DNA from: a virus
Direction: 5' to 3' (one strand)
IMG/VR virus record: IMGVR_UViG_3300022890_000011
Coordinates: 102,602 to 166,601 of that record
DNA: 64,000 nt
Below, in pieces: positions 252-59,604 of the stretch. Under the pieces are notes generated by a model. The model searched no databases and was not told the origin of the DNA. It was given only the letters and a program-made list of their open reading frames with translations. Position numbers and translations under genes: made by a program. Position 1 is the first letter of the stretch; every line of letters starts with the position of its first letter.

Positions 252-512
252 ATGGAGATTTATAAATCATTTTGTATAGATAAAATAAGTAGAACTTTGG
301 TTGGTTATAATAAAATTTGTATAGTTCATTTTATGATAGATTCTGTTTTAATAGGTTATTATAAAGGTTGTCATACTTATCCATTTAATGTTGATCAAGG
401 TGCATATGTTATGGAAAAAATGTCATTTCTTGATTTAATACTTAGATTTGAAATTGATGCTAAAGATTATGTACCTGAATTAATTGAAGGCAATAAAATG
501 GATTTATTATGA
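252..512 (+). CDS. Hypothetical protein with C-terminal EGNKMDLL tag
   Basis: ORF; C-terminal motif shared with many ORFs in the window. Confidence 0.65.
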   Translation: MEIYKSFCIDKISRTLVGYNKICIVHFMIDSVLIGYYKGCHTYPFNVDQGAYVMEKMSFLDLILRFEIDAKDYVPELIEGNKMDLL

Positions 513-961
513 AAAGATTATTTATTATAAGACACGGAAAAGCAGAAGATCACGATCAATCAGATTTTGAAAGATCTTTAACAAAAAAAGGCAAAAGGGT
601 TAGTAGAGAAGTGGCTAAATCGTTATATAATGATGGATACCAAATTGATAATTTTATTACGAGTCCTGGTTTTAGATCATTAGAAACTTGTATAATATTT
701 GCAGATGAATTTGGTTATAATGTTGAAGATATAATAATTAATAGTGATTTATATTTTAATGTTACAACTAATGAATATCAAAATATTTTTGACCAATGTC
801 CGGGTTCTGATAATATTGCTATAGTTGGACATAATCCGTTTTTATCATTTTTAGTTCATCATCTAACTGGTAAAATTGTTAATATGATTAAAAGTGGAGT
901 GTCAGTTATAGAATTTAATGATGGTATGACAGAAGCTAAATTAATTTTATATAAAAACTAA
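509..961 (+). CDS. sixA: Histidine phosphatase, SixA-like
   Basis: RHGKA motif, D..R.LT..G, ITSP..R..ET, VGHNP. Confidence 0.85.
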   Translation: MKRLFIIRHGKAEDHDQSDFERSLTKKGKRVSREVAKSLYNDGYQIDNFITSPGFRSLETCIIFADEFGYNVEDIIINSDLYFNVTTNEYQNIFDQCPGSDNIAIVGHNPFLSFLVHHLTGKIVNMIKSGVSVIEFNDGMTEAKLILYKN

Positions 962-1033
962 TGAAAATAACAAAACAAGAAGGTGGAGATATAGAATATC
1001 AAATTGAAGAAGATATAATCGAATTAATTAAAG

Positions 1034-1384
1034 ATGAAAATTAGAAAAGGATTTGTGAGTAACAGCTCATCAAGTAGTTATATTTGTGATATTTGTGGTG
1101 ATGCTTTTGAAATGTGGGATGAGTCTCCTACTTCATGTGAATATGGTCATTATTTTTGTTATGATTGTATTCCAGATAACTGTGAAGGTGAAGGAAGTGT
1201 TGAAGAAAAGGATTGTCCTTATTGTTCATTTGAGAAAATTTCAGAATATGATTTTAATAATTATATTTTAGCTAAATATAATTTAAATAAAGGAGATATT
1301 GAAAATGAAATTTATGAGAGATTTGAGAACTTTTCAGAATTTATAATTTATATTAACGAAAATAAGAATAGAAAATGCGATTAG
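1034..1384 (+). CDS. MKIRxGFVSNSSSSS-leader protein with Cys-rich zinc-finger-like body
   Basis: N-term MKIRKGFVSNSSSSSY; CDIC, CEYGHYFC, CPYC. Confidence 0.8.
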   Translation: MKIRKGFVSNSSSSSYICDICGDAFEMWDESPTSCEYGHYFCYDCIPDNCEGEGSVEEKDCPYCSFEKISEYDFNNYILAKYNLNKGDIENEIYERFENFSEFIIYINENKNRKCD

Positions 1385-1710
1385 AAAATTTAGAAACAAG
1401 AGTAATTGGTTATATTGGTGTAGATGCAGGTATTGTGTGGATTGGAGACCCATGTTATATAATGCATAAAGATAAACCTTATAAATCTATTGGTAAAGAT
1501 TGGGGTGATTTTTGTGATAAACTTGGTGATAGTTATGTTAAATCATTTAATTATGACATGGGGCACGAGGGTTTAGGTGTTTGTACATCTACTAAACACG
1601 GTGATGGTCATTATCCAGTTATCGGGTTTTTTGAACCAGGTGCACAAAGACCATCATGTGTAATGGTTGATTTTGATAACATTTTTAATAACGAAGAAGA
1701 TGAAGATTAG
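1375..1710 (+). CDS. Hypothetical protein, DUF4241-like
   Basis: GVDAG..WIGDPCY and T..GDG.YPV motifs. Confidence 0.55.
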   Translation: MRLENLETRVIGYIGVDAGIVWIGDPCYIMHKDKPYKSIGKDWGDFCDKLGDSYVKSFNYDMGHEGLGVCTSTKHGDGHYPVIGFFEPGAQRPSCVMVDFDNIFNNEEDED

Positions 1711-2152
1711 AAGTGGTTTTGTAAGTAATAGTAGTTCATCATCTTTCTTAATTTTAAAAGAAGGATTAAGTGATGAACAAATTAGTTCTGTGATAGAACA
1801 TAAGAAACATGCTGATAATTATTTTAATAGTAATGATAGATTAACTGATGAATATCATGAGAATGAAGAAGATGGTTATTCACCTTTTCATCAATTGTAT
1901 GGATTTTGGGATATAGATGGTTATGATGTGTGGAATATAGAAGATCATTTAAATTATATATTAACTGAAAATGGTATGGATAATTTTGATTTGATGAGTT
2001 TTTGTATTGATATATTTAATATACCAAAAGATAATATTTATACGGTTGAAAGTGATATGTATTATTATATTAATGATGTAGATAGTTTTGTAAAACAGAC
2101 AATTACAGAAAGTCGTAAAAATAAACTCGAAAGAGTAAAAAATAAAAAATAA
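1700..2152 (+). CDS. MKIRxGFVSNSSSSS-leader protein with RKNKLERV tail
   Basis: True start is probably ATG 1700 (MKIRSGFVSNSSSSSF), not 1667. Confidence 0.8.
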   Translation: MKIRSGFVSNSSSSSFLILKEGLSDEQISSVIEHKKHADNYFNSNDRLTDEYHENEEDGYSPFHQLYGFWDIDGYDVWNIEDHLNYILTENGMDNFDLMSFCIDIFNIPKDNIYTVESDMYYYINDVDSFVKQTITESRKNKLERVKNKK

Positions 2153-5627: not shown

Positions 5628-7907
5628 ATGAAAATAAGCCAAAAAGACCAACAAGACATTCTTGATAAGAATAAAAGATTAGAATCAATTAAACCAATTC
5701 TTAAATCAGAATTTATTGGAATAGATGATGTTATAGATAATATAATTGAATCTATAAGACCATTTTATGTTTTTCCAAAATCTCTTAAAAGACCTTTAGT
5801 GGTTAACTTATGGGGATTAACTGGAACTGGTAAAACATCTATTGTTGATAGAATAGTTGATTTATTAGAATTAAATAATAGATATTCTAAATTTGATGTT
5901 GGTGAATATTCTTCATCTAATTCAGATTGGAAATTAAAACAAGATTTAGGAGAAGCTACTTCTAATATTGATACCAAAAATATGATATTTGCATTTGATG
6001 AGTTTCAACTAGGTAGAACTATTAATGAGATGGGAGCTGAAGTTGATAGAATTGCTTTAAGACCTATGTGGGAAGTTATTGATCATGGAATTATTTACGA
6101 ATTTAATTACTCATATTCACGTGTATTTGATATACTTAAGAAAATAAAACAATGTGCTGATTCTGGTGTAGAGGTTAAAAAAGGTTATGTTGTTAAAAAT
6201 GAACATGTTTATAATTCAGTTTTTAGACGTGAAGAATTAAGACCTTGTGATTTTAAGGTTTGTACATATCAAGAACAAATAGAAGATGAAGATGAAAATC
6301 ATAATCATCCCGATAGAGAACCACCAATAGTTGTTAGTAGAAGTAATAAAATAACAGAAGAAGCTAAAGAGATTAGAATTAATAAAATAGTCGATCCTGA
6401 TTCAGTTTCATCTTATTATTTTGATATTTCAGATGAAGAAATGAAACATTTTGTACAACCTAGAATGATTAAATATTATCATTATTGTAAATTTTATGAA
6501 GCTAACCCTGCATTTTTTGAAAATGAGTTTAATTTTAAAAAACATATTGATAAGTTTAATTTGCCATTTCCATTGTTAATTGAAATGATTAGTAAAAATT
6601 TCATTATGAATTCATCATTAATGAGAAAGAAAGATTTTTCACAATCATTAGTATTTTGTGTTGGTAATGTTGATGAAGCATATACAATGGCTTTTTCTTC
6701 TGATCCTGATGCGGATGCGGATTTATTTTGGGAACATTCTTTAAAGATTAATATTCCTAAAATGAAAAATGCTTTATCTCATAGATTTAGAATGGAACAA
6801 ATTGGTAGATTAGGTAATAATCATATTGTATATCCAGCTCTCAATAAAAATTCTTATGAAAAGATTATTGAACTTTATTTTAACAAAAGAGTTGAACATT
6901 TTGAAGAACAATTTGGAATTAAATTAGAAGTGGATGAAAGTTTAAAAGATATTATGTATAAAGAATCAGTTTTTCCGTCCCAAGGTGTGAGACCAATTTT
7001 ATCATCTTTTAATACATTAGTAGACTCTTATGTTTCAAGATTGATTTCGGATTTAATTTTCCAAAATCCTACATGTGATAAAGTTAACTGGAAATATAGC
7101 AGAAAAGATGAGAAATATATTATTTCATCAACAGGAGAGAAAGAAGAAGTTATTATTGAATATCCAGTTAAACTTAATATTGAAAATTTAAGAGAATCTG
7201 ATTATTCAGAGAATCAAGCATTTACCGCTGTTCATGAAGCTGGTCATGCAGTTATTTCTGTTGTTGCAGCCGATTTAGTTCCAAAAGAAGTTGTTTCTAA
7301 AACAGCATCTATTGCTGAAGGTTTTTGTAGAATTGAATATCCAGAACAAATGACTAGAGATTTATCTATTAAACAAATCAAAGTATTATTAGCTGGTATT
7401 GAATCTGAAAGATTTCTATTTGGTGATGAATTAATTAGTTCAGGTGCTTTTTCTGATTTATCAAGAGCAACTGATTTAGCTGTGTCTATGATTAAAGAAT
7501 TTGGTATGGGCGAAAGTCTTTGTCAAATAAGAGCGACAACAGATTCCACTATGGTTGGTATGAAAGTAATGAGTGAAGATTATGAAGAAGTTATCGCTAA
7601 GATGATTGATGATCTTCAAAAAGATGTTCAAAAATTATTAAAAGATAATGAAGAGTTTTTATTAGAATTGTCTCATTTTTTATCTAATAATTCTAAGATT
7701 GAGAAGGATGAACTAACTAAAATGGCTAAAAAATATCATACAAAATTCAGAGATAAAGATCATTATTATGATTTTAAAGATACTATTAAAACTCGTATGA
7801 ACAAGATTGATATGTCAGAATCACCAGATTCTATTGTTAAAGAACAGATTTATGAGTTTTCTCAAAATAAGAAGAAGAAAAATAATGGAAACGGAAAATC
7901 AAAATAA
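5628..7907 (+). CDS. Soluble AAA+ ATPase (Clp-D2-like) fused to peptidase M41 (FtsH-type) domain
   Basis: FIGID.VI, GLTGTGKT, FAFDEF, GRLG, QGVRP; C-terminal AVHEAGH and GA.SDL..AT; no TM segment. Confidence 0.8.
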   Translation: MKISQKDQQDILDKNKRLESIKPILKSEFIGIDDVIDNIIESIRPFYVFPKSLKRPLVVNLWGLTGTGKTSIVDRIVDLLELNNRYSKFDVGEYSSSNSDWKLKQDLGEATSNIDTKNMIFAFDEFQLGRTINEMGAEVDRIALRPMWEVIDHGIIYEFNYSYSRVFDILKKIKQCADSGVEVKKGYVVKNEHVYNSVFRREELRPCDFKVCTYQEQIEDEDENHNHPDREPPIVVSRSNKITEEAKEIRINKIVDPDSVSSYYFDISDEEMKHFVQPRMIKYYHYCKFYEANPAFFENEFNFKKHIDKFNLPFPLLIEMISKNFIMNSSLMRKKDFSQSLVFCVGNVDEAYTMAFSSDPDADADLFWEHSLKINIPKMKNALSHRFRMEQIGRLGNNHIVYPALNKNSYEKIIELYFNKRVEHFEEQFGIKLEVDESLKDIMYKESVFPSQGVRPILSSFNTLVDSYVSRLISDLIFQNPTCDKVNWKYSRKDEKYIISSTGEKEEVIIEYPVKLNIENLRESDYSENQAFTAVHEAGHAVISVVAADLVPKEVVSKTASIAEGFCRIEYPEQMTRDLSIKQIKVLLAGIESERFLFGDELISSGAFSDLSRATDLAVSMIKEFGMGESLCQIRATTDSTMVGMKVMSEDYEEVIAKMIDDLQKDVQKLLKDNEEFLLELSHFLSNNSKIEKDELTKMAKKYHTKFRDKDHYYDFKDTIKTRMNKIDMSESPDSIVKEQIYEFSQNKKKKNNGNGKSK

Positions 7908-7949
7908 GTTTGATGAAGAAATGAAACATAATCCTATTATATCATTTGA

Positions 7950-8189
7950 AGATTTGATCCGTCAAGCAAAACATGTTCTAATTGTGGTTCAATCAATAAA
8001 GAATTGACTTTAAAGGATAGGGAATGGATTTGCTCTAAATGTGGAAAAGAACATGATAGAGATATTAATGCTGCTATAAATATAAGAAATTTTGGGTTGA
8101 GGAACCAACCCAGTGTCACCCAAAGTGAATGGTTACATTGTGCTTGTGGCGTATAAACACATTAGTCTTTAGCTAATGTGTAAGTTCAT
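7950..8189 (+). mobile_element. 3' remnant (about 240 bp) of the TnpB element, with right-end hairpin
   Basis: Near-identical to 63761-63999; hairpin acacattag-tctttag-ctaatgtgt; ends in ttcat. Confidence 0.9.
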
Positions 8190-10597: not shown

Positions 10598-12604
10598 ATG
10601 GATGATGTAGAAAATAAAAAATCAAATAAAAACAGTAATTCTGATACACCAACATTAGATTCTTATGGTGTTGACTTGACAAAAGCCGCAATGGAAGATA
10701 GGTTAGACCCCATAATTGGTCGTGAAGTTGAAATTGAAAGATTGGCTCAAATTTTGAGTAGACGCAAAAAGAACAACCCAGTATTAATCGGGGAGCCTGG
10801 AGTTGGTAAAAGTGCCATAGTAGAGGCTTTGGCTATTAGAATCATAAATAAAAAAGTGTCAAGAGTTCTTTTTGATAGAAAAGTCATGACTTTAGATTTA
10901 GCTTCAGTTATTGCTGGTACTAAATATAGAGGTCAATTTGAAGAAAGGATGAAGGCTATCTTAGATGAATTATCAAAAAATGAGGATGTAATATTATTTA
11001 TTGATGAAATACATACAATAGTTGGAGCAGGTGGTGCATCTGGTTCACTTGATGCTGCAAATATGTTAAAACCAGCTCTTGCTAGAGGTGATATTCAATG
11101 TATTGGTGCAACGACATTAGATGAATATAGACAACATATTGAAAAAGATGGAGCGTTGGAGAGAAGATTTCAAAAAATAATGGTAGAGCCAACTTCTTCT
11201 GAAGAAACAGTTGAAATACTTCATAAAATTAAAGAAAGATATGAAGATCATCATAATGTAGAATATACTGATGAAGCATTAGAAGCTTGTGTTAAATTAA
11301 CTAATAGGTATATTACAGATAGATGTTTACCTGATAAAGCTATTGATGCTCTTGATGAGGCTGGTTCTAGAGTACATATTTCTAATATTGTTGTTCCTCA
11401 ATCTATTTTGGATCTTGAATCTGAATTAGAAATAGCTAAAAAAGATAAATTAGAAGCAGTTAAAGCTCAGAAGTTTGAAGATGCTGCAGAGGCTCGTGAT
11501 TATGAAAAAGATATTTTAAGTGATATTAAATCTGAAAAAATAGAATGGGAAAAAGAACTTTCAAAAAATAAAGAAAAAGTTGACGAACATGATATTGCTG
11601 AAGTTGTTGCGATGATTACTGGTGTTCCAGTTAATAGAATTGCTCAATCAGAAGGTAATAAACTAGTAAAAATGGATGTAGACCTTAAAGGTAAAATTAT
11701 TGGTCAAGATGAAGCACTAAGTAAAATTGTTAAATCTATTAAGAGAAATAGATCTGGGTTGAAAGATCCAAATAAACCAATTGGTACATTTGTATTCTTA
11801 GGTCCTACAGGGGTTGGGAAAACGTGGTTAGCTAAAGTATTATCTGAATATTTATTTGATAGTAAAGATGCTTTAATTAGAATTGATATGAGTGAATATA
11901 TGGAGAAGTTTGCAGTTTCAAGATTAGTTGGTGCTCCTCCAGGATATGTTGGTTATGAAGAAGGCGGACAATTATCTGAGAAAGTTCGTAGAAAGCCATA
12001 TTCTGTTGTGTTATTAGATGAAATTGAAAAGGCACATCCAGATGTATTTAATATTTTACTTCAAATTTTAGATGAAGGTAGATTAACTGATAGTTCTGGT
12101 AGAAGAATTGATTTTAGAAATACATTGATTATAATGACTTCTAATATTGGTACTAGACAATTAGCTGAACATGAAGGTGGTGGTATCGGTTTTGATACAA
12201 AAGCAAAATTAGAAGGTAAAGAATCACATAATAATAGTGTTGTACAGAGTGCTTTGAAAAAAGCTTTTGCACCAGAATTTCTAAATAGATTAGATGATGT
12301 AGTTGTATTTAATTCATTGGATATAAATAGTATTAAAGATATTATTGAAATTGAATTAGAGGGTTTATATTCTAGAGTTGAAGAACTTGGTTATAAAGTT
12401 AAATTGTCACCGAAAGCAAAAGATTATATTTGTGAAAAAGGATTTGATCCTAAATATGGTGCTAGACCTTTAAAAAGAGCAATACAAAAATATTTAGAAG
12501 ATAAATTAGCAGAAACTCTAATATCTACAAATATTAAGCAAGGTTCTACTATTTCAGTTGGATATAGTAAGAAAAATGATGAAATAACAATTAATGTAAA
12601 GTAG
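10598..12604 (+). CDS. clpC: ClpC-type Clp ATPase lacking the N-terminal Clp repeat domain
   Basis: Two AAA modules (GEPGVGKS, GPTGVGKT), UVR M-domain, GAPPGYVG, GARPL. Confidence 0.95.
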   Translation: MDDVENKKSNKNSNSDTPTLDSYGVDLTKAAMEDRLDPIIGREVEIERLAQILSRRKKNNPVLIGEPGVGKSAIVEALAIRIINKKVSRVLFDRKVMTLDLASVIAGTKYRGQFEERMKAILDELSKNEDVILFIDEIHTIVGAGGASGSLDAANMLKPALARGDIQCIGATTLDEYRQHIEKDGALERRFQKIMVEPTSSEETVEILHKIKERYEDHHNVEYTDEALEACVKLTNRYITDRCLPDKAIDALDEAGSRVHISNIVVPQSILDLESELEIAKKDKLEAVKAQKFEDAAEARDYEKDILSDIKSEKIEWEKELSKNKEKVDEHDIAEVVAMITGVPVNRIAQSEGNKLVKMDVDLKGKIIGQDEALSKIVKSIKRNRSGLKDPNKPIGTFVFLGPTGVGKTWLAKVLSEYLFDSKDALIRIDMSEYMEKFAVSRLVGAPPGYVGYEEGGQLSEKVRRKPYSVVLLDEIEKAHPDVFNILLQILDEGRLTDSSGRRIDFRNTLIIMTSNIGTRQLAEHEGGGIGFDTKAKLEGKESHNNSVVQSALKKAFAPEFLNRLDDVVVFNSLDINSIKDIIEIELEGLYSRVEELGYKVKLSPKAKDYICEKGFDPKYGARPLKRAIQKYLEDKLAETLISTNIKQGSTISVGYSKKNDEITINVK

Positions 12605-13391
12605 GTTAAATATATATAATTAAATGTGGAATAAAGAAAAAGATAAAGAATATAAAAAATTAAAGCGTTCTGGATATACTAAAGAACAATTAAAAAAACA
12701 TTTTGGTGAAGATATATATGATTCAAATTATTTACAAAAATCTGAAAAATTATCATTTTTAAAAGATTATAAATCCTATTTGTTAACTGAAATAAAAATA
12801 ACACCAGAAGAAACAGAATATATTATTAAAAAAGAAAAATCAATATCATATAATGACAAATATGATTATGTTATAAATTTTGAAATAGATGCCAATAAAT
12901 ATGTTTTAATTTTATTTTATGTTATATCTAATAATATTCATTCATATGAATTATTATTTACCACAACACAACAATATATCGAATATACGATAGAAATGGA
13001 TAATATATTATCTTTACCTGGTAAACATTTCACTGATAAAGAACAAGAATTTTTAAAAAAGATTGTTGAAAAAGAAACAAATTTTGATGAAGTAATGAAA
13101 TTGATGAAATCAATTTCATATATTTTACTTGATATTTATACAGATTATACATCTATTGATTGTTTTTCAATTCATTCAACAGATAATCCCACAAAAATAA
13201 AATTATACAGAAATATTATAAAAGATTCTTTTAAGAATATAAAAGAAAAGAAAATTGGTGATATTTTTTATTATGAATTTGATTTAGAAGATTTTGATTA
13301 AAATAAAAACAATAAGGTTATGTTTTAGAATAATGTATAAAAGTTTAGTTGGATATAGTAAGAAAAATAATGAAATAACAATTAATGTAAA
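12556..13391 (+). repeat. 45-bp direct repeat (12556-12600 / 13347-13391) duplicating the clpC 3' end
   Basis: agttggatatagtaagaaaaat(g/a)atgaaataacaattaatgtaaa, 1 mismatch. Confidence 0.9.
12624..13301 (+). CDS. Hypothetical protein (cassette between the clpC-end repeats)
   Basis: ORF preceded by AAATATATA. Confidence 0.7.
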   Translation: MWNKEKDKEYKKLKRSGYTKEQLKKHFGEDIYDSNYLQKSEKLSFLKDYKSYLLTEIKITPEETEYIIKKEKSISYNDKYDYVINFEIDANKYVLILFYVISNNIHSYELLFTTTQQYIEYTIEMDNILSLPGKHFTDKEQEFLKKIVEKETNFDEVMKLMKSISYILLDIYTDYTSIDCFSIHSTDNPTKIKLYRNIIKDSFKNIKEKKIGDIFYYEFDLEDFD

Positions 13392-13396
13392 ATAAT

Positions 13397-13831: not shown

Positions 13832-14218
13832 ATGGAAAAACAAGTAAATAGAGCAATTGAAAATATTTACGGTAATGAATATTGGTTGAATATTGTCATA
13901 AATGTAGATAAAGATTATAGTAAATCTAATAAATAAATTGTAAAAGATATTAATGATACATTTAAAAAAACTTTTGATGTTAATGAAAAAATACCAAAAA
14001 TTTTTGCGTCTTGGGTAGATAATTATACAGGTGGATTTTTTGTTATATCATTATATAAAGAAAAAACTAATTGGGGTAATAATTTTACATGGGCTTCAAC
14101 ATTTTATGATTCAGAAGAAGAATTGAACTCAGATAAAGAATCAAATAAAAATGAGGTTTGGATGAATTATGATGAAATGAATTCACATTTTGATGCTTAT
14201 AAATTAGGATTATTATAA
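13832..14218 (+). pseudogene. Hypothetical protein ending DAYKLGLL, with in-frame TAA at 13934-13936
   Basis: Single frame from ATG 13832 to TAA 14218 with one internal stop. Confidence 0.6.
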
Positions 14219-19890: not shown

Positions 19891-20220
19891 ATGAAAAAAT
19901 TATTGATTGTTTTAATTATGATAGGGTTTTTATCATGTGAAAAATCTAACAAAATTCAAACAAAATTTATTTATGGAAAATGGATAAGCCAAAGTGAATG
20001 TGGAACAATATATCTTACTAAAGATAATTGTAAAATTAAAAATGGTTTTTTAATTTTTGAAGATTTAAAAGTTAGAATAATTAATGTAAATGAAAATACA
20101 TTGGCATTGGATTATGAATGTTTAATTTGGAAGAAACCTAAAGTTTTAACTCCATGTTTGATAAGTTTAGGATATATTTTAGACGATAATGGGAATATTA
20201 TACAAGATACTATAAATTAA
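19891..20220 (+). CDS. Lipoprotein
   Basis: MKKLL...FLSC lipobox; GKW lipocalin-like motif. Confidence 0.7.
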   Translation: MKKLLIVLIMIGFLSCEKSNKIQTKFIYGKWISQSECGTIYLTKDNCKIKNGFLIFEDLKVRIINVNENTLALDYECLIWKKPKVLTPCLISLGYILDDNGNIIQDTIN

Positions 20221-21619: not shown

Positions 21620-21634
21620 TCTTATATTAAAATT

Positions 21635-22371: not shown

Positions 22372-22590
22372 ATGGAACAACCAAAATTCATACACGATTG
22401 CGATAATTGTATTTTCTTAGGAATATATGAAGAATATGATTTATATTATTGTGATAATGAACCTACTATAATTGCAAGATATGGTGATAATGGACCAGAT
22501 TATATGAGTGGGATGATATTTGCACAGCCAGATAAAAGTGAACCATTATATAAAGCAAAACAATTAGCCATTGAAAAAGGGTTATTATAA
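22372..22590 (+). CDS. Small Cys-containing phage protein (HDCDNCIFLG..YDLYYC)
   Basis: ORF with motif; ends KGLL. Confidence 0.65.
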   Translation: MEQPKFIHDCDNCIFLGIYEEYDLYYCDNEPTIIARYGDNGPDYMSGMIFAQPDKSEPLYKAKQLAIEKGLL

Positions 22591-22619: not shown

Positions 22620-22955
22620 ATGGAAGAATATAGATTTAAAATATTTGATTGTGAATATGGCATTAAATTGTACGATTGTATGAAATTTGATGTATCATAT
22701 TTAAAATCAAATGGAAGAAATGAAATGTCATCTAAAGAGGTGTGGGTTGATTGGATTACTGCTATAACATCAACATGGCCTAAACACCAACTTGTTATAT
22801 ATGCAAGAGGTGAGTCTTTTGATGTTTATGGTTATGATACTGTAGAAGTATTTGAGAGAGATTATGATACAAGTAAAAATTATCTAAATTTTAAAATTAG
22901 TAGTAGAAAAGATTTTAATATGATAATAGAATCAAAAAAATTAAACTTATTATAA
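22620..22955 (+). CDS. Hypothetical protein with ESKKLNLL tail
   Basis: ORF; shared C-terminal tag. Confidence 0.65.
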   Translation: MEEYRFKIFDCEYGIKLYDCMKFDVSYLKSNGRNEMSSKEVWVDWITAITSTWPKHQLVIYARGESFDVYGYDTVEVFERDYDTSKNYLNFKISSRKDFNMIIESKKLNLL

Positions 22956-33395: not shown

Positions 33396-33824
33396 ATGGA
33401 TGTAGATAAAATAAAAGAGTGGTTAGATTCACCAGAAGGTAAAAAAGATTTTAAGGAATATATGCTTAAGGCGACTAATAAAGACGAACATAGTCAAAAA
33501 AGGTTTCTTAGAGTTGAAAAATATTTAGAAAATTGTGATTTTGATTCTTTAATGGAAAGATTGAAAGATGAACATGGTGATGAATATCGTGATAAATGTT
33601 ATAAGAAAGGATATGAACCTTATAATAATAGAAAATTAAGTCTTTTAATAAAATGGATATGTGACAGATTTGAATCAATAGAAATATCTAAATTAGACTC
33701 AATGTTTTTAGCTGAGACTTATGTATATAAAAGTTACGTGTTCCAATTATTCCAGGGACAAGGATGTTTTTGGAGAGTATCTAAGAGGGTTGGTGATAGT
33801 TATGAATCATTTTTCCAAGTTTAA
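33396..33824 (+). CDS. Conserved phage hypothetical protein (C-terminal GQG)
   Basis: ORF. Confidence 0.6.
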   Translation: MDVDKIKEWLDSPEGKKDFKEYMLKATNKDEHSQKRFLRVEKYLENCDFDSLMERLKDEHGDEYRDKCYKKGYEPYNNRKLSLLIKWICDRFESIEISKLDSMFLAETYVYKSYVFQLFQGQGCFWRVSKRVGDSYESFFQV

Positions 33825-34150
33825 ATTAACCCCAATTTATTACCTTGAATTATACTTAACATACCTTCCACATCACTATCATCAAAATCTATGTGTATAA
33901 CATCAGGCCATTTTTTAGTATGATGTATCCATGCGTATGCCTCTGATTTACCAGCCGAATTCTTATTGAATATATAAACATACAATTCACCAAATTTATC
34001 AAAGAATTGGTGCATTGTGGGTGGTATATTTAGATTACAACCGACCTTTTCTAGATTTATTTTTAATTCTTGTAGTTGTTCTAAGTTATGTGTAATTACA
34101 CAAAATTGAGCATTAGAATCTTTTTCATTATATGTTTTTAAATACTTCAT
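33821..34150 (-). CDS. MKYLKTYNE...GNKLGLI tagged protein
   Basis: Carries both terminal tags; last gene of the fibre operon. Confidence 0.75.
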   Translation of the reverse strand: MKYLKTYNEKDSNAQFCVITHNLEQLQELKINLEKVGCNLNIPPTMHQFFDKFGELYVYIFNKNSAGKSEAYAWIHHTKKWPDVIHIDFDDSDVEGMLSIIQGNKLGLI

Positions 34151-46957: not shown

Positions 46958-46958
46958 G

Positions 46959-48842: not shown

Positions 48843-49211
48843 ATGAAATATTTAAAAACATTTGAAAATGATCAATTGAATTTATCCTTTAATATTTGGT
48901 TTGATTTAATCGAAATATCTAATAAATTATATAATAAATATTGGAAATATGATTCAGTTGAAGATATTGATATGGTTAAAATCAAACTTGAAAATACAAT
49001 TTTTGTAAATATTTTTAAATTCAATGAAATAGAATTATGGAAATGGAAACATACTGACCCAGAATTATATATAAATATAACCAATGATGGTACTAATTCT
49101 ACCACTATAAGTAATGTTGATGATCTTGAATTAAATGATAAAATACATGATGTTTTGAAAGATCCAAATACAATAATAAAACTAGAAGCAAATAAAATGG
49201 GTTTATTATAA
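48843..49211 (+). CDS. MKYLKTFE...EANKMGLL tagged protein
   Basis: Both terminal tags. Confidence 0.75.
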   Translation: MKYLKTFENDQLNLSFNIWFDLIEISNKLYNKYWKYDSVEDIDMVKIKLENTIFVNIFKFNEIELWKWKHTDPELYINITNDGTNSTTISNVDDLELNDKIHDVLKDPNTIIKLEANKMGLL

Positions 49212-51144: not shown

Positions 51145-51396
51145 ATGTTTACTTTAAGCTCCTTATGGATATTGTTAATAGGAATAATCCCTTTCATTAT
51201 CGCTGTATTTAATAAAAAATCACCTTTTCCAAAAGCTAAAATTTGGAAAATGTTAAAATGGAACTCTGTCATCGGCGTAGGTTACTGGGTACTAGGCTCA
51301 TTACCATTTATTGGTAGTTTGTTTGGACTCGGGTGGATCTTCTTATTAGGATGGGCATTGTTTCCTAATTGGATATTGTTTAAATGGTTAAATTAA
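51145..51396 (+). CDS. Small membrane protein
   Basis: Hydrophobic segments. Confidence 0.55.
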   Translation: MFTLSSLWILLIGIIPFIIAVFNKKSPFPKAKIWKMLKWNSVIGVGYWVLGSLPFIGSLFGLGWIFLLGWALFPNWILFKWLN

Positions 51397-52082
51397 CTAA
51401 TATTATCTAAGTGTTTTAAATACTCTCTGAGTGTTTTAAACACTTTTCCTTTTTTTGCTCTTTTATTATTTTGCTTTATTGCATTATTAATATCATTATA
51501 TTTTCCCGCCAAAGATTCCAATAAATTTAATTTATTTGCACTAATAACGTGAGATTTAATAAATTCATCAACGGTATCATATATTTCCGATAAATATCCT
51601 GTAGATTTTAATTTAGATAATGATATAATAGTATTTTGATAATATAATTGTGATGGTATTATTGATAGATATTTAATTGATGGGTTATATGTAGAACCTC
51701 TTATTTGATCAATATCTAAAGATTCGTAATTATTATTTTTTAAGAATTTAATTAAAGTATCATATTCCTCTTTGTTATTTATTTTAACAACATAGTTATT
51801 CCAACTTGTTGATTCCAATAATCCCATATTTATTCCTTGAAATAATGACTCCAATTCTTCAATTGTTGTAAATGAATCAATTATATTAAAAAGAGCACCT
51901 ATTTTATATTCTGTGAGGAATGTATAATAAAACCATTTTTCAGAAGGTATAATTACAATATAATGTGCATAATCATAATACTTAGAAGACTCATTATTTT
52001 GATAATCTTGTTTTAATAAATAATCTGTGTATAAAACAAGATCTTTTTTATTATCTATTTTTATTAAATATGCACTTTTCAT
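51393..52082 (-). CDS. Two-module protein with internal GINMGLLE and ANKLNLLE tags
   Basis: Duplicated Y.(I/V)KI.NK module, each ending in the tag. Confidence 0.7.
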   Translation of the reverse strand: MKSAYLIKIDNKKDLVLYTDYLLKQDYQNNESSKYYDYAHYIVIIPSEKWFYYTFLTEYKIGALFNIIDSFTTIEELESLFQGINMGLLESTSWNNYVVKINNKEEYDTLIKFLKNNNYESLDIDQIRGSTYNPSIKYLSIIPSQLYYQNTIISLSKLKSTGYLSEIYDTVDEFIKSHVISANKLNLLESLAGKYNDINNAIKQNNKRAKKGKVFKTLREYLKHLDNIS

Positions 52083-52453
52083 TAAAATAATCCTAAGTTA
52101 ATTTTTGATTTTAATTCTTCGTCAAATTTGATAGTTAATTCAAATATTATTCTATTATCACCTTCTTCATAATCATTTTTTGAAAAACCCATTACTTTTA
52201 AAGATAATTCATATGTTTCAGATATATTTTCGAATCTTTCTTTAATATCAAATAATTCTGATAGTTCATATTCACCGTCTATTTTCCATACAAAATCTAA
52301 TTTTTCTATATCAGAAATTGAGTCAAAAAAATCATAATCTTCTTCATCTTCATAATAGACTGGATAATTTAATAATTGATTTTCAATTATTTTGATAAAT
52401 TTTTTTAAAATTTGTTCGTCTATTTTTTCGTTATATGACTTTAAATATTTCAT
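52082..52453 (-). CDS. MKYLKSYNE...KINLGLF tagged protein
   Basis: Both tags. Confidence 0.75.
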   Translation of the reverse strand: MKYLKSYNEKIDEQILKKFIKIIENQLLNYPVYYEDEEDYDFFDSISDIEKLDFVWKIDGEYELSELFDIKERFENISETYELSLKVMGFSKNDYEEGDNRIIFELTIKFDEELKSKINLGLF

Positions 52454-52861
52454 TATATTAAACCCATTTTATTTCCTTCTACTTGAGATTTACAATCATC
52501 TGATATTAAAAATTCATATATATCATAAGCATATTCTAATAAATTGTATTGTCTAATATCACCTAAACTATATAGTTCACCTTCATCTTCTACTATTGTT
52601 ATATCAGTGTTTTTACGATCTTTATTAATTGTTAATTTGTTAAAATGTTCAATATCTATTAATAAAGTTAAATGTGTTCCCTCACCTATATATTTCTCAC
52701 ATAATGATTGGATATTTTCTATTAAATCTTCAAGTAATTCTGATCTTTCTTGTATATTGTCGATATTTGAATTCATGTTTAATTATATTGGATTGTAAAT
52801 CTTCAATCTTTTTATCATTCCAATCCTTAAAATCTTCGTTATATTTCTTTAAGTGTTTCAT
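52453..52861 (-). CDS. MKHLKKYNE...EGNKMGLI tagged protein with a 1-nt frameshift near 52778
   Basis: ATG at 52861 gives MKHLKKYNEDF; joins ORF 52453-52776 if one A is removed. Confidence 0.65.
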
Positions 52862-53184
52862 AATAGTCCCATCTTTAAAGATTCTATCATATCTTTATTT
52901 ATTTTTGATAAAGAAAAAATTAATATTAGATAAATTGCTTCAAGACCAACATCAATTTCAATTTCAACATTAAAAATTTCACGTAAATTATTTAGTTTAT
53001 TTAAATAATCATCCTTTGTTAAATAAATAATATCAGGATCTCTAAAATTAATAGATATAACAAAATTATCATTAGAATTTAAATAACTATTAAAACCTTT
53101 ATTAAATATCTTTTTAACGTAATTTTTAAGAGGTTCTTGAAAATAATCCCAACTAGATTCATTGTATTTATTTAAGTGTTTCAA
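52858..53184 (-). CDS. MKHLNKYNE...SLKMGLL tagged protein (TTG start)
   Basis: Both tags. Confidence 0.75.
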   Translation of the reverse strand: MKHLNKYNESSWDYFQEPLKNYVKKIFNKGFNSYLNSNDNFVISINFRDPDIIYLTKDDYLNKLNNLREIFNVEIEIDVGLEAIYLILIFSLSKINKDMIESLKMGLL

Positions 53185-55577: not shown

Positions 55578-55955
55578 TTATAATAATCCCATTTTTTTAG
55601 ATTCTATAAACGTTGTTACATCTTCACTTGTTAAATAATTATAAAAATCTTGCATACCTTTTTTATCATTAAATAAAGGATTTTTATAATCTAATGATTT
55701 AAATTTACCATGATATCTTAAAAGTTCAACTAAAAATATTTGATTGTGTTCAATTGTAATATATATATTATATATAATACCAGAGAATGGTTCACTGAAA
55801 TATATTAAACAAGTATCAAATTTTGTAGTTAAAATATTACCTGGAACATTTATTTCATATTTTTCAATTTGTGTTAATTTACTTATTTCATCTAATTTAG
55901 ATAGAATCTTGTTTAAAACTTCTGATTCGTTTATAAAATTGTTATAGTTTTTCAT
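55578..55955 (-). CDS. MKNYNNFINE...ESKKMGLL tagged protein
   Basis: Both tags. Confidence 0.75.
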   Translation of the reverse strand: MKNYNNFINESEVLNKILSKLDEISKLTQIEKYEINVPGNILTTKFDTCLIYFSEPFSGIIYNIYITIEHNQIFLVELLRYHGKFKSLDYKNPLFNDKKGMQDFYNYLTSEDVTTFIESKKMGLL

Positions 55956-56395
55956 TATAATAATCCTAAATTTTCCCCTTCTATATAATGAATGTTTTCT
56001 TCATTAAATGTTTTAAATTTATCTTTATCATACTCTATAATTATATCAAGTTCTGGATGTGTTTCTAAATCTAAATAATAGTCAAGGTTAGTATCATCTA
56101 ATATTTTCTTGAATTTATTTAATTCATTTAAAAAATATGAAAATTCTGTCTTGATGATTCCAGTTTTCTCCCACTCTGTATTAAATTCATTAAAACTAAT
56201 TCTTATTTCGATACCACCTTTGAATAATCCTTCGATAGTTACATTGTAATTATTTATAAGAAAATATTTATAAAGTATTTTAATAGTTAGTTTAGTATCA
56301 GCACCATGTTCTATTGAAAATTTTTTAATAGAGTTTTTAAATGAGGATATCATGCTTTTATATGTTACTTCGTTATATTTTTTAATATATTTCAT
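55955..56395 (-). CDS. MKYIKKYNE...EGENLGLL tagged protein
   Basis: Both tags. Confidence 0.75.
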   Translation of the reverse strand: MKYIKKYNEVTYKSMISSFKNSIKKFSIEHGADTKLTIKILYKYFLINNYNVTIEGLFKGGIEIRISFNEFNTEWEKTGIIKTEFSYFLNELNKFKKILDDTNLDYYLDLETHPELDIIIEYDKDKFKTFNEENIHYIEGENLGLL

Positions 56396-56879: not shown

Positions 56880-57620
56880 ATGACAAAACAAATCGTAATT
56901 ATTGGAGATTCTCATGCTAGACCAATAGCCATTGAGATAATAGAATTACATCTAAAAAGCGCTCATAAAATAATACTACTTGGAGATTACGTAGATCCAT
57001 ATATTCTCTCACCAATATCAGATAAGAAGGTAGTTAGTCACCTAAAAAAGATTATTAAATATAAAAAAGATTATCCAGATAAATTTGTTTTATTGATAGG
57101 CAATCATGATATACATTATGTTCATCCTTCAATAAGATGTAGTAGATATAATTATAAAATTGCTACTGAATTAAGAGAATTATACACAGAAAATTGGGAT
57201 TTATTTGATATATCACACCAAATAGAAAATTATCTTTTTACACACGCTGGTGTTTGTATGAAATGGTTAGATAAACATTGGTCACATTTTGAATCTTTTG
57301 GTCTTAAACCTGATTATTCTAATATAGATCAAGTTTTGAAAGATGTTCATAAAAGTAAATTGTTTTATATTTTACATGAAGTTGGTTCTTTTAGATCTAA
57401 TCCGGAAGAATATCCTAAAGTAAGCGGTGCTGTTACCTGGTGTGACAAAAGTGAAGGTAAAAATGATTATATACCTGGATTTCATCAGTATGTTGGTCAT
57501 AGTCAAGGTGGTATTTTAGAAACATTTGGTGATGATGAGTCTTCAATAACATATTGTGATACATTGGGATTGTCAGGCGAATATGTAGTATTAAAATTAA
57601 AAGATGATGAAAGTATTTAG
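56880..57620 (+). CDS. Calcineurin-like metallophosphoesterase (paralogue of 53251)
   Basis: GDSH, GDYVD, GNHD, THAG, GHS. Confidence 0.9.
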   Translation: MTKQIVIIGDSHARPIAIEIIELHLKSAHKIILLGDYVDPYILSPISDKKVVSHLKKIIKYKKDYPDKFVLLIGNHDIHYVHPSIRCSRYNYKIATELRELYTENWDLFDISHQIENYLFTHAGVCMKWLDKHWSHFESFGLKPDYSNIDQVLKDVHKSKLFYILHEVGSFRSNPEEYPKVSGAVTWCDKSEGKNDYIPGFHQYVGHSQGGILETFGDDESSITYCDTLGLSGEYVVLKLKDDESI

Positions 57621-57927
57621 ATTAAATATAATTAATGAAGATTTTTCTGAATTACAAGAGAAATTATTTAATATTAAAATATATTGGAGTAATGTTGGAA
57701 AATATTCACATAGTTCAAAATATGGTGATTATATTTATATTTTTAAACCAACTGATACATGTTTCCATGGAAAAAATTGTGATGCTGTGTTTGCTTTTGT
57801 TCATCATGAATCTGGGATTATGGATCATTATAAATGTGATTATGATTATATTGATTTTAAAAGTTTTAAAGATTTTGAAGAAAAACATAAATGGTTATTT
57901 GAATCTAGTAAAATGGATTTAATATAA
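57604..57927 (+). CDS. Hypothetical protein with ESSKMDLI tail
   Basis: C-terminal tag. Confidence 0.65.
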   Translation: MMKVFRLNIINEDFSELQEKLFNIKIYWSNVGKYSHSSKYGDYIYIFKPTDTCFHGKNCDAVFAFVHHESGIMDHYKCDYDYIDFKSFKDFEEKHKWLFESSKMDLI

Positions 57928-58458
57928 TCCCATTTTATTTGCATTATGTAGGTCTGGGTTTTCTTTCCAAAACCATTTCCAATAACCTTCTAAATTATCA
58001 TAAGGTAATTGGTTATTTTCACAATATAATTCTTTTAATCTTTTAGATAATTCAGGTAATTCAGTTAATTGGTTATTATAACAATATAATTCTTTTAATC
58101 CTTTTGGTAATTCAGGTAATTCAGTTAATTTATTATTAAAACAATATAAATATTTTAATCCTTTAGGTAATTCAAGTAATTTAGTTAATTGATTATTATA
58201 ACAATATAATATTTTTAACCCTTTAGGTAATCCAGGCAATTCAGTTAAATAGTTATCATAACAATATAATCTTTCTAATCCTTCAGGTAATTCAGGTAAT
58301 TCAGTTAATTTGTTATTACCACAATATAAATATTTTAATCCTTTAGGTAATTCAGGTAATTTAGTTAAATTTAAATTAAATAAATTTAATGTTTTACCAT
58401 TATTACTTAAATTGTCTTTAATTAATTGATTTTCATTGTATGTCTTTAAATACTTCAT
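57919..58458 (-). CDS. Leucine-rich repeat protein (20-aa IpaH/YopM-type repeats) with both terminal tags
   Basis: About 6 x LPELP.GLK.LYC.NN.LT; MKYLKTYNE...NANKMGLY; 60-bp DNA repeats. Confidence 0.85.
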   Translation of the reverse strand: MKYLKTYNENQLIKDNLSNNGKTLNLFNLNLTKLPELPKGLKYLYCGNNKLTELPELPEGLERLYCYDNYLTELPGLPKGLKILYCYNNQLTKLLELPKGLKYLYCFNNKLTELPELPKGLKELYCYNNQLTELPELSKRLKELYCENNQLPYDNLEGYWKWFWKENPDLHNANKMGLY

Positions 58459-59199
58459 TTAACCATATTTTTTAATATATTGATTCCAGTCCATTGTATT
58501 AACATGTCCTTTTTCTAATTCAGTTAAACATTTATATGGTTTTGGGTTTTTATAATCTTCTATGTCAACCTCTTGTGTTTGTGTATAATTGAATGGTCTA
58601 TTACCAATTGGTTTTTCTTTTGATACTAAAAGGTTATGATTTTTGATAATCATTTTACCATTTTTATATGTTTCTGTATTACTTTCTTGATATAATTTTT
58701 GTCTATCAGCAATATTCATAGATTTATTATAAGGTACAGTTTTATCTTTTTTTGATGGTGATTTTATATGTTCTTTCCATTCTTCATTTGGTGTATGTTT
58801 ACTTTCTATATAGTCTTCTAGTGATATTGCATGACCATGAAGCATATCATTTTCTATAACTTCTATTTTATATTCATTATATAATATTTTTATATCTTCA
58901 TTCCATACATTTCTAAAACATATTTCTAAACTGTTTAATATGGGATATAATTCTTCTGGTTCAGGATAATTCCAAAATGATATTAGTTTTTTATCTGTCC
59001 ATATTCTTCCAGAATAATTATATTCTAATAATCCATACATTTCTATCATTGATGCGTGAGTTGCACTAGGTTCTCCTATATATGATCTACCATCAACAAT
59101 CCAAAATGGCCTCGCATCTTTATCTTTATATTCTGCTTCTTCCCATGGGATCGCGTCAGGATTTTCCGTAAATAATTTAAATGATTTTATGTGTTTCAT
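58459..59199 (-). CDS. MKHIKSFKLFTE-leader hypothetical protein
   Basis: Leader; SGRIW..KK.ISFW.YP. Confidence 0.7.
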   Translation of the reverse strand: MKHIKSFKLFTENPDAIPWEEAEYKDKDARPFWIVDGRSYIGEPSATHASMIEMYGLLEYNYSGRIWTDKKLISFWNYPEPEELYPILNSLEICFRNVWNEDIKILYNEYKIEVIENDMLHGHAISLEDYIESKHTPNEEWKEHIKSPSKKDKTVPYNKSMNIADRQKLYQESNTETYKNGKMIIKNHNLLVSKEKPIGNRPFNYTQTQEVDIEDYKNPKPYKCLTELEKGHVNTMDWNQYIKKYG

Positions 59200-59226
59200 A
59201 GTTTATAGTTTATAGTTTATTTTTTA

Positions 59227-59604
59227 TCATACTAATAATGCCATTTTATTTATTTCGAGTAAACGATTAATGTTTTTCTCTGAAATACGTATTTGATGAT
59301 AACAACCACCACTTTTTTCAAGTTGACTAGTTGTTTTAAAACCATATTCTTCTAATAATTCAAATTTACTTAGCAATTCATCATATTCTTCTTTTATATC
59401 ATATTCATTAAAATTAAGAGCATAACCTACATATAAATCATCAGGGCCATTTATGACAAATGAATATGAACTATCAATGTGAAGATATGATTTACTATCA
59501 CTAAATATTTTATCAATAATTTTTTTCACTAATCTTGATTTATCATGAAATGTTGTTCCTTTATCTGGATTGATATGATCTTCATATGTTTTAATATATT
59601 TCAT
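59227..59604 (-). CDS. MKYIKTYE...INKMALLV tagged protein
   Basis: Both tags. Confidence 0.7.
   Translation of the reverse strand: MKYIKTYEDHINPDKGTTFHDKSRLVKKIIDKIFSDSKSYLHIDSSYSFVINGPDDLYVGYALNFNEYDIKEEYDELLSKFELLEEYGFKTTSQLEKSGGCYHQIRISEKNINRLLEINKMALLV

What the first reader, a model, noticed from the sequence alone, without database searches (positions are those of the whole stretch)
252..59604. Conserved C-terminal tag (E/N)xxK(M/L)(G/D/N)L(L/I) on about 14 otherwise unrelated small proteins
Seen: EGNKMDLL (512), DAYKLGLL (14218), ESKKLNLL (22955), QGNKLGLI (33821), EANKMGLL (49211), SKINLGLF, EGNKMGLI, ESLKMGLL, ESKKMGLL, EGENLGLL, ESSKMDLI (57927), NANKMGLY and EINKMALLV. Most, but not all, also carry the MKYLK leader, so the two tags are separable. 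Inference: a docking or sorting signal for a phage structure (scaffold, portal, ejection machinery), or a C-terminal degron for the phage-encoded ClpC/ClpP or AAA-M41 protease, by analogy with hydrophobic C-terminal degrons such as ssrA tags.
Basis: partly seen in the sequence, partly recalled or inferred. Interest (0 to 1): 0.78.

Follow-up and report, generated by a model that had tools for sequence, protein, structure and literature searches.

The report
Shared C-terminal tag on megaphage proteins
About one gene in eight of this large uncultured T4-like phage encodes a small, otherwise unrelated protein that ends in the same short peptide (…E-G-x-K-M/L-G-L-L); it behaves like an address label found only in this phage lineage, and what reads it is still unknown.

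Summary
All 13 listed endings are in the window. Across the 166.6-kb contig, 32 of about 262 genes end in h-h-[EQ]-[GAS]-x-K-[ML]-G-L-[LIMFY]. Residue shuffles give 0.09 per genome, and a complete related phage of the same GC content has 0 of 282.

The tag acts at the protein level. Orthologues at 33-54% identity keep it through synonymous codon changes. It is also portable: 80 tagged proteins fall into 55 sequence-unrelated clusters. Of two bodies modelled, one is an LRR solenoid and one a small alpha/beta domain.

It occurs only in a narrow lineage: this contig and three IMG/VR megaphage fragments carrying 23-63 copies each. It is absent from 20 phages with related capsid proteins and from 17 that encode ClpC.

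I favour cargo sorting into the T4-type prohead (about 0.35), because the tag co-occurs with a leader resembling the T4 capsid-targeting sequence. A degron or adaptor tail for an AAA+ protease comes next (about 0.2), but the tag does not track the phage ClpC, ClpP or AAA-M41. A sliding-clamp-type docking peptide is third.

This scan already reported the same tag elsewhere on this genome (e1-5660053), and different end tags in other megaphages.

The parts
252..512 (+). Tagged gene, 86 aa, ends LIEGNKMDLL; no MKYLK leader
13832..14218 (+). Tagged gene broken by one in-frame TAA (13934-13936); the 3' part, 14123-14218, ends DAYKLGLL
22372..22590 (+). Possible degenerate tag: 72 aa ending AIEKGLL, next to a tagged gene
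   Evidence: resemblance only
22620..22955 (+). Tagged gene, 111 aa, ends IIESKKLNLL; has a remote homologue in relative G001 that is also tagged
33821..34150 (-). Tagged gene, 109 aa, with MKYLKTYNE leader, ends IIQGNKLGLI. Four orthologues keep both ends. The AF2 model is an alpha/beta domain; its first 9 and last 5 residues score pLDDT below 50
48843..49211 (+). Tagged gene, 122 aa, with leader, ends KLEANKMGLL
51393..52082 (-). 229-aa protein made of two repeated ~95-aa modules. Each module ends in an internal copy of the tag (QGINMGLL, SANKLNLL), followed by a basic extension
52082..52453 (-). Tagged gene, 123 aa, with leader, ends KSKINLGLF
52453..52776 (-). Tagged gene, 107 aa, no leader, ends QVEGNKMGLI; its stop overlaps the next gene's start (TAATG)
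52858..53184 (-). Tagged gene, 108 aa, MKHLNKYNE leader, ends MIESLKMGLL
55578..55955 (-). Tagged gene, 125 aa, ends FIESKKMGLL; no homologue other than itself among 5.8 billion proteins
55955..56395 (-). Tagged gene, 146 aa, with leader, ends YIEGENLGLL
57604..57927 (+). Tagged gene, 107 aa, ends LFESSKMDLI; converges on the next tagged gene and overlaps it by 9 nt
57919..58458 (-). Tagged LRR protein, 179 aa: leader, seven 20-residue LRRs, and a cap ending NANKMGLY. One of four paralogues in this genome
59227..59604 (-). Off-pattern tagged gene, 125 aa, with leader, ends EINKMALLV
10598..12604 (+). Context only (candidate reader, not supported): ClpC without its N-domain, keeping the ClpP-docking IGF loop
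25506..26165 (+). Context only (candidate reader, not supported): ClpP
5628..7907 (+). Context only (candidate reader, not supported): fusion of a ClpC-D2-like AAA+ module to an M41 (FtsH-type) peptidase

Best explanation
The tag is a portable C-terminal address label that works at the protein level. It consists of the end of an amphipathic helix (acidic, h, x, x, h, h, [EQ], [GAS], x, K), then [ML]-G-L-[LIMFY]-COOH, that is a Gly helix cap followed by a hydrophobic dipeptide. It sits on dozens of fast-evolving, unrelated small accessory proteins and brings them all to one common partner. I rate this general statement at about 0.8.

My preferred destination is the T4-type prohead. In this reading the tagged proteins are virion cargo, functional analogues of the T4 internal proteins. 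They are loaded onto the scaffolding core or capsid interior and later injected with the DNA. The tag may be clipped after the conserved h-h-E, just before the small residue, by the prohead protease, as the N-terminal CTS is in T4.

What is shown: the tag's reality, portability, protein-level selection, lineage restriction, association with a CTS-like leader, and T4-type head genes in a relative. What is inferred: binding to a head component, packaging, cleavage and injection.
For: - Enrichment: 32 of 262 genes carry the tag, against 0.09 expected from shuffles and 0 of 282 in a related genome of matching composition.
- Portability: 80 tagged proteins form 55 unrelated clusters. One modelled body is an LRR solenoid and one an alpha/beta domain with no PDB or viral fold match.
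- Protein-level selection: orthologues at 33-54% identity keep the tag while Gly, Leu, Ser and Ile codons differ. The last residue varies only among hydrophobic residues, encoded by unrelated codons.
- Exposure: in the alpha/beta domain model the last 5 residues score pLDDT below 50, after helix 94-105.
- Link to a capsid-targeting-like leader: 15 of 32 tagged genes also start MK[YH][LI][KN], against 8 of 230 untagged genes (odds ratio 24, p = 2e-10). One protein on the contig starts MKTYIEFLNE, close to the T4 CTS MKTYQEFIAE (PMC8442874).
- Head genes: relative G001 encodes a gp23-type capsid protein and a weak prohead-protease hit in an 816-aa frame. Metagenome contigs with a close capsid protein show a T4-type portal and an ~815-aa gene directly upstream of the capsid gene.
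- Expression signal: tagged arrays carry the same upstream motif, TTTAATATATA(A/G), as the tail-spike gene.
- Capacity: giant phage heads can hold about 50 different proteins (abstract of PMC7411985).
Against: - The CTS-like leader alone could do the sorting, which would make a second tag redundant. Many tagged proteins in the relatives lack the leader.
- The tag is absent from 20 phage records whose capsid protein is 58-68% identical to G001's, four of them complete or nearly so. A conserved head protein is therefore an unlikely reader unless the docking site is a lineage novelty.
- Tagged proteins are acidic (median pI 5.3), whereas T4 internal proteins are described as highly basic (PMC8442874).
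- Position -8 is N or Q in 9 of 31 tags, which fits poorly with a strict Glu-specific cleavage site.
- The upstream motif also precedes replication and nuclease genes, so it does not show late expression.
- No head gene was recognised on this contig, and there are no proteomic data.
Confidence: 0.35

Rival explanations
1. The tag is a C-terminal degron, or the docking tail of a family of adaptors, for an AAA+ protease: the phage's N-domain-less ClpC with ClpP, its AAA-M41 fusion, or a host protease. Either tagged early proteins are cleared on schedule, or each variable body binds a host target and the constant tail delivers it for destruction.
For: - The tag sits at the exact C-terminus in 31 of 32 cases, with a hydrophobic end, as in ssrA-type degrons (own knowledge).
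- The last five residues are predicted flexible.
- The window encodes ClpC with an intact IGF loop, ClpP and an AAA-M41 fusion.
- A ClpC-like gene is also present in the tag-rich relatives G001 and G002.
- The bodies include LRR domains, which are typical protein binders.
Against: - ClpP and M41 were not found in G001, G002 or G005, although these are fragments.
- G001's ClpC is only 43% identical to this one, while the tag is nearly invariant.
- At least 19 T4-like jumbo phages with the same kind of ClpC have no tag.
- Conservation spans 8-14 residues including a helix, more than pore-read degrons usually need.
- The internal copies in the 229-aa protein are still intact.
- The LRR family's tag is predicted ordered, as part of the cap.
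- No phage tmRNA with a matching tag peptide was found.
Confidence: 0.2
2. The tag is a hub-docking peptide of the sliding-clamp type. It would tether many accessory proteins to a ring or hub on DNA, either the host beta clamp or an unrecognised phage clamp. This is how the C-termini of T4 gp43, gp33 and gp55 all bind gp45.
For: - The last five residues, K-[ML]-[GND]-L-[LIMFY], match the bacterial clamp-binding motif Q-phi-x-[LM]-[FL] at four of five positions (PMC11139829).
- Variants with Gln at the first position exist: KQLGLF in P0011 and KQLGLI in G001.
- Several clamp-binding motifs lie in C-terminal tails, and the free carboxylate contributes to binding.
- In T4, highly similar, interchangeable C-terminal motifs on unrelated proteins bind the clamp (PMC2988020).
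- This phage has a T4-like family B polymerase and a weak clamp-loader match.
Against: - The defining Gln is Lys in about 80% of tags, and the review states that replacing Gln lowers affinity.
- No gp45-type or DnaN-type clamp gene was detected in any genome of the lineage.
- None of the recognisable replication proteins on the contig carries the tag.
- It is hard to see why 30-60 unrelated small proteins would need a clamp.
Confidence: 0.12
3. The tag is only a structural element: the closing helix and hydrophobic plug of an ancestral module. On this view the tagged genes are very divergent paralogues whose ends have stayed recognisable.
For: - In the LRR family the ending is predicted ordered (helix 168-175, pLDDT about 90) and forms part of the cap.
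- LRR homologues in the tag-less phage G025 end in the similar AAKKYNL.
- G, N and D at position -3 suit a helix C-cap (own knowledge).
- Several bodies share a 'beta-strand, N/D, helix' beginning, and 33821 and 57604 look like remote relatives (by eye).
- Internal copies sit at module ends.
Against: - Two clearly different architectures carry the tag.
- There are 55 sequence-unrelated clusters, with no link found even by iterated HMM searches at E < 0.01.
- Lengths range from 86 to 295 aa.
- In the alpha/beta domain model the last five residues are not packed.
- A structural cap would not be expected to keep eight near-identical residues across unrelated cores.
Confidence: 0.1
4. The conservation is at the nucleic-acid level. 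The tag's codons would serve as the translation-initiation region of the next, overlapping gene, or as a junction repeat for cassette shuffling.
For: - In about half the cases the tag's stop overlaps or abuts the next gene's ATG (ATGA, TAATG, TAAATG).
- The Gly codon is GGA in 76% of tags against 32% genome-wide (chi-square 22.9, 3 df), which places A at -6 and -3 of the next start.
Against: - The tag is kept on convergent gene pairs and where no gene follows.
- Orthologues differ at synonymous sites throughout the tag.
- Substitutions are conservative at the amino-acid level across unrelated codons (ATG/TTA/TTG at -4; TTA/ATA/ATG/TAT/TTT at -1).
Confidence: 0.03

Closest known systems
Capsid targeting sequence (CTS) of T4 internal proteins IPI-III (PMC8442874, PMC3012670)
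   Same: A short conserved terminal peptide is the only shared feature of a diverse, fast-evolving set of small phage proteins. The phage lineage has T4-type head genes, and a CTS-like leader co-occurs with the tag.
   Different: The CTS is N-terminal, and its loading and cleavage are proven. This tag is C-terminal, has a different sequence, sits on acidic proteins, and has no demonstrated packaging or cleavage.
Encapsulin family 1 cargo-loading peptides
   Different: No encapsulin shell gene is involved. The motif differs (GSLxIGSL-type versus K[ML]GL[L]). Here the number of tagged genes per genome is tens, not one to a few.
Clamp-binding C-terminal peptides: T4 gp43/gp33/gp55 with gp45 (PMC2988020) and the bacterial motif Q-phi-x-[LM]-[FL] (PMC11139829)
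   Same: A portable, interchangeable hydrophobic C-terminal pentapeptide on unrelated proteins. Four of the five positions of the bacterial motif are matched, and a free C-terminus is used.
   Different: The key Gln is usually Lys. No clamp gene was recognised. Carriers are small accessory proteins of no known family rather than replication or transcription factors.
ssrA-type C-terminal degrons and the SspB C-terminal ClpX-docking tail
   Same: Exact C-terminal position, a nonpolar end, a flexible context, and Clp components encoded nearby (own knowledge for the degron rules).
   Different: The tag is gene-encoded on about 12% of genes rather than added by tmRNA. The conserved stretch is longer. 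The tag's distribution does not follow phage ClpC, ClpP or M41.

Membership tests
Bacterial beta-clamp-binding motif (Q-phi-x-[LM]-[FL], PMC11139829) | Gln at position 1 | tested here: not met
   Position -5 is K in 25, E in 3 and N in 3 of 31 tags. Q occurs only in rare variants.
Bacterial beta-clamp-binding motif (Q-phi-x-[LM]-[FL], PMC11139829) | Aliphatic residue at position 2, L/M at position 4, F/L(/I) at position 5 | tested here: met
   Position -4 is M in 17 and L in 14; -2 is L in 31 of 31; -1 is L 16, I 5, M 4, Y 4, F 2.
Bacterial beta-clamp-binding motif (Q-phi-x-[LM]-[FL], PMC11139829) | Physical binding to the clamp pocket | not testable with these tools
   Needs a binding assay with the host clamp or the phage clamp. 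No clamp gene was recognised in the lineage.
T4-type capsid targeting sequence | N-terminal ~10-residue peptide resembling MKTYQEFIAE | tested here: not met
   The tag is C-terminal and unrelated in sequence. A separate CTS-like leader exists on 23 genes, 15 of which also carry the tag.
T4-type capsid targeting sequence | The only conserved element on otherwise diverse small proteins of a phage with a T4-type head | tested here: met
   55 unrelated clusters; gp23-type capsid protein in relative G001, with a T4-type portal beside the capsid gene on contigs carrying a close capsid protein.
T4-type capsid targeting sequence | Directs packaging into the prohead and is removed by the prohead protease | not testable with these tools
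   Needs virion proteomics or a reporter-fusion experiment.
ssrA-like C-degron read by a Clp or FtsH protease | Nonpolar residues at the exact C-terminus | tested here: met
   31 of 32 tags end exactly at ...L-[LIMFY].
ssrA-like C-degron read by a Clp or FtsH protease | Co-occurrence with its protease | tested here: inconclusive
   ClpC-like genes are in all three large tag-bearing records, but also in at least 19 tag-less phages. ClpP and M41 were found only on this contig. The related records are 32-49% complete.
   LRR solenoid (pLDDT 94) versus alpha/beta domain (pLDDT 77). No sequence link among 55 clusters. Only two bodies were modelled.
Encapsulin family 1 cargo-loading peptide | Cargo gene next to an encapsulin shell gene, with a GSLxIGSL-type motif | tested here: not met
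   No encapsulin shell gene was recognised among the large ORFs scanned; the lineage's capsid protein is gp23-type. The motif differs.

The most novel reading that the evidence does not exclude
The tagged proteins form a phage-encoded arsenal of modular adaptors. Each fast-evolving body (LRR or other small binder) would seize a different host protein, for example a defence factor. The constant C-terminal tail would plug the complex into one phage-controlled machine, a Clp-type unfoldase/protease, for destruction. This would be a bacterial-virus counterpart of the ankyrin/F-box and BTB/kelch families of large eukaryotic viruses.
Probability: 0.07. Interest if true: 0.9.

Novelty: new variant of a known kind. 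Interest (0 to 1): 0.6.

Why it matters
If one short peptide sends 30-60 different accessory proteins to a single destination, it acts as a sorting code for a large share of the unannotated genes in huge phages. It would mark which unknown genes act together. Because the tag is portable, it would also give a handle for pull-downs and reporter fusions. If the destination is the capsid, it would be a ready-made tag for loading foreign proteins into phage particles.

Notes from this scan (AI notes, unchecked) suggest that other megaphage lineages carry their own, different end tags. If so, the phenomenon may be general, and I did not find it described in the papers I searched.

Tried and rejected
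- Profile search with the tails. A profile of 73 tails, searched against 5.8 billion proteins and restricted to longer proteins, returned only 4 hits, all from the same phages. A 14-residue motif cannot reach significance at that database size (some searches were parameter errors).
- Family scans of ten tagged proteins. Pfam and PHROGs gave nothing.
- Homologue search for 55578-55955. Only the protein itself was found.
- Fold searches of the alpha/beta model. PDB Foldseek gave no match at E <= 0.001, VIA-align gave best Z 3.9, and BFVD gave only weak matches to unnamed small phage proteins.
- Complex prediction. The 33821-34150 protein with the E. coli beta clamp as a stand-in scored 0.00; the verdict was 'no answer', so it counts neither way.
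- Clamp genes. The gp45 families (PF09116, PF02916) and DnaN (PF02768) gave no hit in any genome of the lineage.
- Polymerase C-terminus. It could not be located. The polymerase gene is split by homing endonuclease genes here and in G001, where an intein-like insert also follows the DTDS motif.
- A false lead. A G025 protein ending KLKGLI looked like a polymerase tail but proved to be a class II aminoacyl-tRNA-synthetase-like protein.
- Phage tmRNA carrying the tag. None was found.
I dropped this idea because the family is just as expanded in tag-less G025 and the LRR's own ending models as part of its cap.
This was tested by distribution, not by binding, and does not co-vary with the tag.
- AAA-M41. 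It is unique to this contig among 16 genomes.
- Differential genomics of tag-bearing versus tag-less genomes. This was not feasible because only fragments of the relatives could be held. Of the 262 proteins on this contig, 29 have a hit in G025.
- Prohead-protease family. It is absent from this contig and gives only a weak hit in G001.

Full report
**What the window is.** The window is the last 64 kb of a 166,601-bp viral contig of 25.5% GC, which CheckV rates 58% complete. The contig is a T4-like phage of a Bacteroidota-type host. It encodes:
- a tail-spike-like protein and an RnlA-type RNA ligase;
- a family B polymerase N-terminal part and a Mre11/Rad50 fusion;
- two large proteins with SprB repeats and a CHU_C type IX secretion domain.

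The window also holds a ClpC, a ClpP, an AAA-M41 fusion, a CTP synthase and a TnpB-like gene.

**The observation.**
- Genome-wide, 32 of 262 non-overlapping ORFs end in the motif. Only 6 internal matches occur in 52,701 residues.
- Shuffling each protein gives 0.09 C-terminal hits per genome. A complete related phage of the same base composition (G025, 243 kb) has 0 of 282.
- The consensus runs over about 14 residues: acidic (-14), hydrophobic (-13), hydrophobic (-10, -9), E/Q/N (-8), G/A/S (-7), x, K (-5), M/L (-4), G (-3; rarely N or D), L (-2, invariant), L/I/M/Y/F (-1).
- The ORF at 14123-14218 is the tail end of a gene broken by one stop codon.
- 51393-52082 holds two internal copies at the ends of two repeated modules.

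**Protein level, not DNA level.** The tag often abuts or overlaps the next gene's start. Its Gly codon is biased to GGA, 76% against 32% genome-wide. So the tag's codons also carry some translation-initiation context for the next gene. This cannot explain the conservation, for three reasons.
- Convergent gene pairs and genes with nothing downstream keep the tag.
- Substitutions stay hydrophobic across unrelated codons.
- Three orthologues of 33821-34150, from this window and two metagenome contigs, differ at synonymous sites throughout the tag while the peptide stays the same.

**Portable, not one fold.** With both ends trimmed, only the four LRR paralogues are related by BLAST. Eighty distinct tagged proteins from this phage and its relatives form 55 phmmer-unrelated clusters, 46 of them singletons. 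Iterated HMM searches do not merge them.
- AlphaFold2 models the 33821-34150 protein as a small beta-alpha-alpha-beta-beta-beta-alpha domain (pLDDT 77). Helix 94-105 carries the h-h-Q-G part of the tag. The last five and first nine residues score pLDDT below 50. No PDB or viral fold match was found.
- The 57919-58458 protein is a seven-repeat LRR solenoid (pLDDT 94) whose ending NANKMGLY is modelled as the ordered end of the cap helix.
- A 295-aa tagged protein has a 46%-identical orthologue in tag-less G025 that ends differently.

**Distribution.**
- Exact and degenerate DNA patterns for the tag found it in only three other IMG/VR records. These are 3300022868_000009 (G001, 344 kb), 3300023257_000007 (G002, 348 kb) and 3300022868_000015 (G005, 88 kb). 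There it sits in long tandem arrays of small genes, many without the MKYLK leader.
- A strict 18-nt pattern gives 18, 45, 63 and 23 hits in G000, G001, G002 and G005, against 0-1 for the reversed-pattern control.
- The relatives are not close. Their ClpC is 43% identical to this one, and apart from the LRR family almost no tagged body is shared. They do share an IS-type transposase at 100% identity.
- Seventeen other jumbo phages that encode ClpC give 0-2 pattern hits each. The ten of these I checked all have gp23-type capsid proteins.
- Twenty phages whose capsid protein is 58-68% identical to G001's give none. These include complete or near-complete genomes of 640, 676, 243 and 130 kb.

The tag is therefore an innovation of one narrow lineage.

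**Who reads it?**

- The ClpC aligns with B. subtilis ClpC from residue 151 onward, so it lacks the N-domain. It keeps the M-domain and an IGF loop.
- ClpP and the AAA-M41 fusion are on this contig only.
- ClpC is patchily present in tag-less relatives.
- No phage tmRNA was found.

The proteolysis reading stays possible, especially with a host protease as reader, but nothing ties the tag to these genes.

- Tagged genes are strongly enriched for an N-terminal leader, MK[YH][LI][KN] (odds ratio 24, p = 2e-10). This leader resembles the T4 capsid-targeting sequence MKTYQEFIAE (PMC8442874).
- One protein on the contig begins MKTYIEFLNE.
- G001 has a gp23-type capsid protein and a weak prohead-protease hit in an 816-aa frame.
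- Contigs with a close capsid protein place a T4-type portal nearby and an ~815-aa gene directly upstream of the capsid gene.
- T-even internal proteins are the textbook case of diverse anti-defence proteins that share only a terminal tag (PMC3012670).
- Against this reading: the leader is also present in tag-less G025, so the head machinery does not need the tail. Conserved head proteins also exist in many tag-less phages.

*Clamp-type docking.* The last five residues match the bacterial clamp-binding motif at four of five positions, but not at the key Gln (PMC11139829). T4 uses interchangeable C-terminal peptides on gp43, gp33 and gp55 (PMC2988020). No clamp gene was recognised.

**Verdict.** The tag is a real, portable, lineage-specific C-terminal label selected at the protein level (about 0.8). 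Its reader is unknown. My ranking is:

| Reading | Probability |
|---|---|
| Prohead/virion cargo sorting | 0.35 |
| Degron or adaptor tail for an AAA+ protease | 0.20 |
| Clamp-like hub docking | 0.12 |
| Structural closing helix of an old module | 0.10 |
| Nucleic-acid-level constraint | 0.03 |
| Something else | remainder |

**Relation to earlier notes.** Its notes also describe different end tags in other megaphage lineages. Those are unchecked AI notes. My own control genome G025 shows that not every relative has such a tag. I found no description of this tag in the papers searched.

Noticed in passing
window 13294-13395 and 12563-12604: The last 14 residues of ClpC (GYSKKNDEITINVK) are repeated almost exactly (GYSKKNNEITINVK) at the end of a 33-aa ORF just after the 225-aa gene 12624-13301. 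It looks as if that gene was inserted behind ClpC with a duplication of ClpC's 3' end.
   Followed up: no
window 62828-63994 (and 7937-8119): A 388-aa IS-type transposase is 100% identical to a copy in the related megaphage record G002 (locus L035:3592-4755). A 60-aa ORF at 7937-8119 is 92% identical to part of the same element. The same mobile element is moving between these otherwise distant phages.
   Followed up: partly
window 5628-7907: A 759-aa soluble fusion of a ClpC-D2-like AAA+ module to an FtsH-type M41 peptidase. It was found in none of 15 other jumbo-phage genomes checked.
   Followed up: partly
window 19891-22054: Four consecutive genes (109-244 aa) all begin MKKLL followed by a hydrophobic stretch, like signal or lipoprotein leaders.
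   Followed up: no
window 1034, 2631, 4257, 44948 (gene starts): Four proteins start MKIR-x-GFVSNSS, a second shared leader. A radical-SAM-like gene lies at 15836-17095. The one at 44948-45592 also holds an internal KLGLL.
   Followed up: no
whole contig; in the window e.g. upstream of 37555-42351(-), 48843(+), 54064(+), 59604-60530(-), 60612(+): A promoter-like motif, TTTAATATATA(A/G), lies 8-52 nt upstream of 37 genes. Its core, AATATATA, is 12.5-fold enriched in intergenic regions. It precedes both structural genes and tagged arrays.
   Followed up: partly
window 57919-58458 and relatives G002, G005, G025: The 20-residue-repeat LRR family (LTELPELPxGLxxLxCxxNxL) is greatly expanded. Match counts are 4 here, 20 or more in each of G002 and G005, and 27 in the complete tag-less phage G025.
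   Followed up: partly
contig 66601-74159 (outside the window; loci L031:9601-17159): Two phage proteins of 1350 and 1160 aa carry SprB repeats, PKD domains and a CHU_C type IX secretion sorting domain. This points to a gliding Bacteroidota host.
   Followed up: no
locus L210 (G001:129035-132268): In the relative, the family B polymerase reading frame continues after the DTDS motif into an intein-like insert and is flanked by homing-endonuclease-like genes. On this contig the polymerase N-terminal part is likewise followed by a DUF7487 endonuclease gene.
   Followed up: no
window, tagged genes with an overlapping downstream start: The tag's Gly codon is GGA in 76% of cases against 32% genome-wide. 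With the TTA Leu codons, this puts A at -3 and -6 of the next gene's ATG in the ATGA overlaps. This looks like a translation-initiation context layered on the protein tag.
   Followed up: partly
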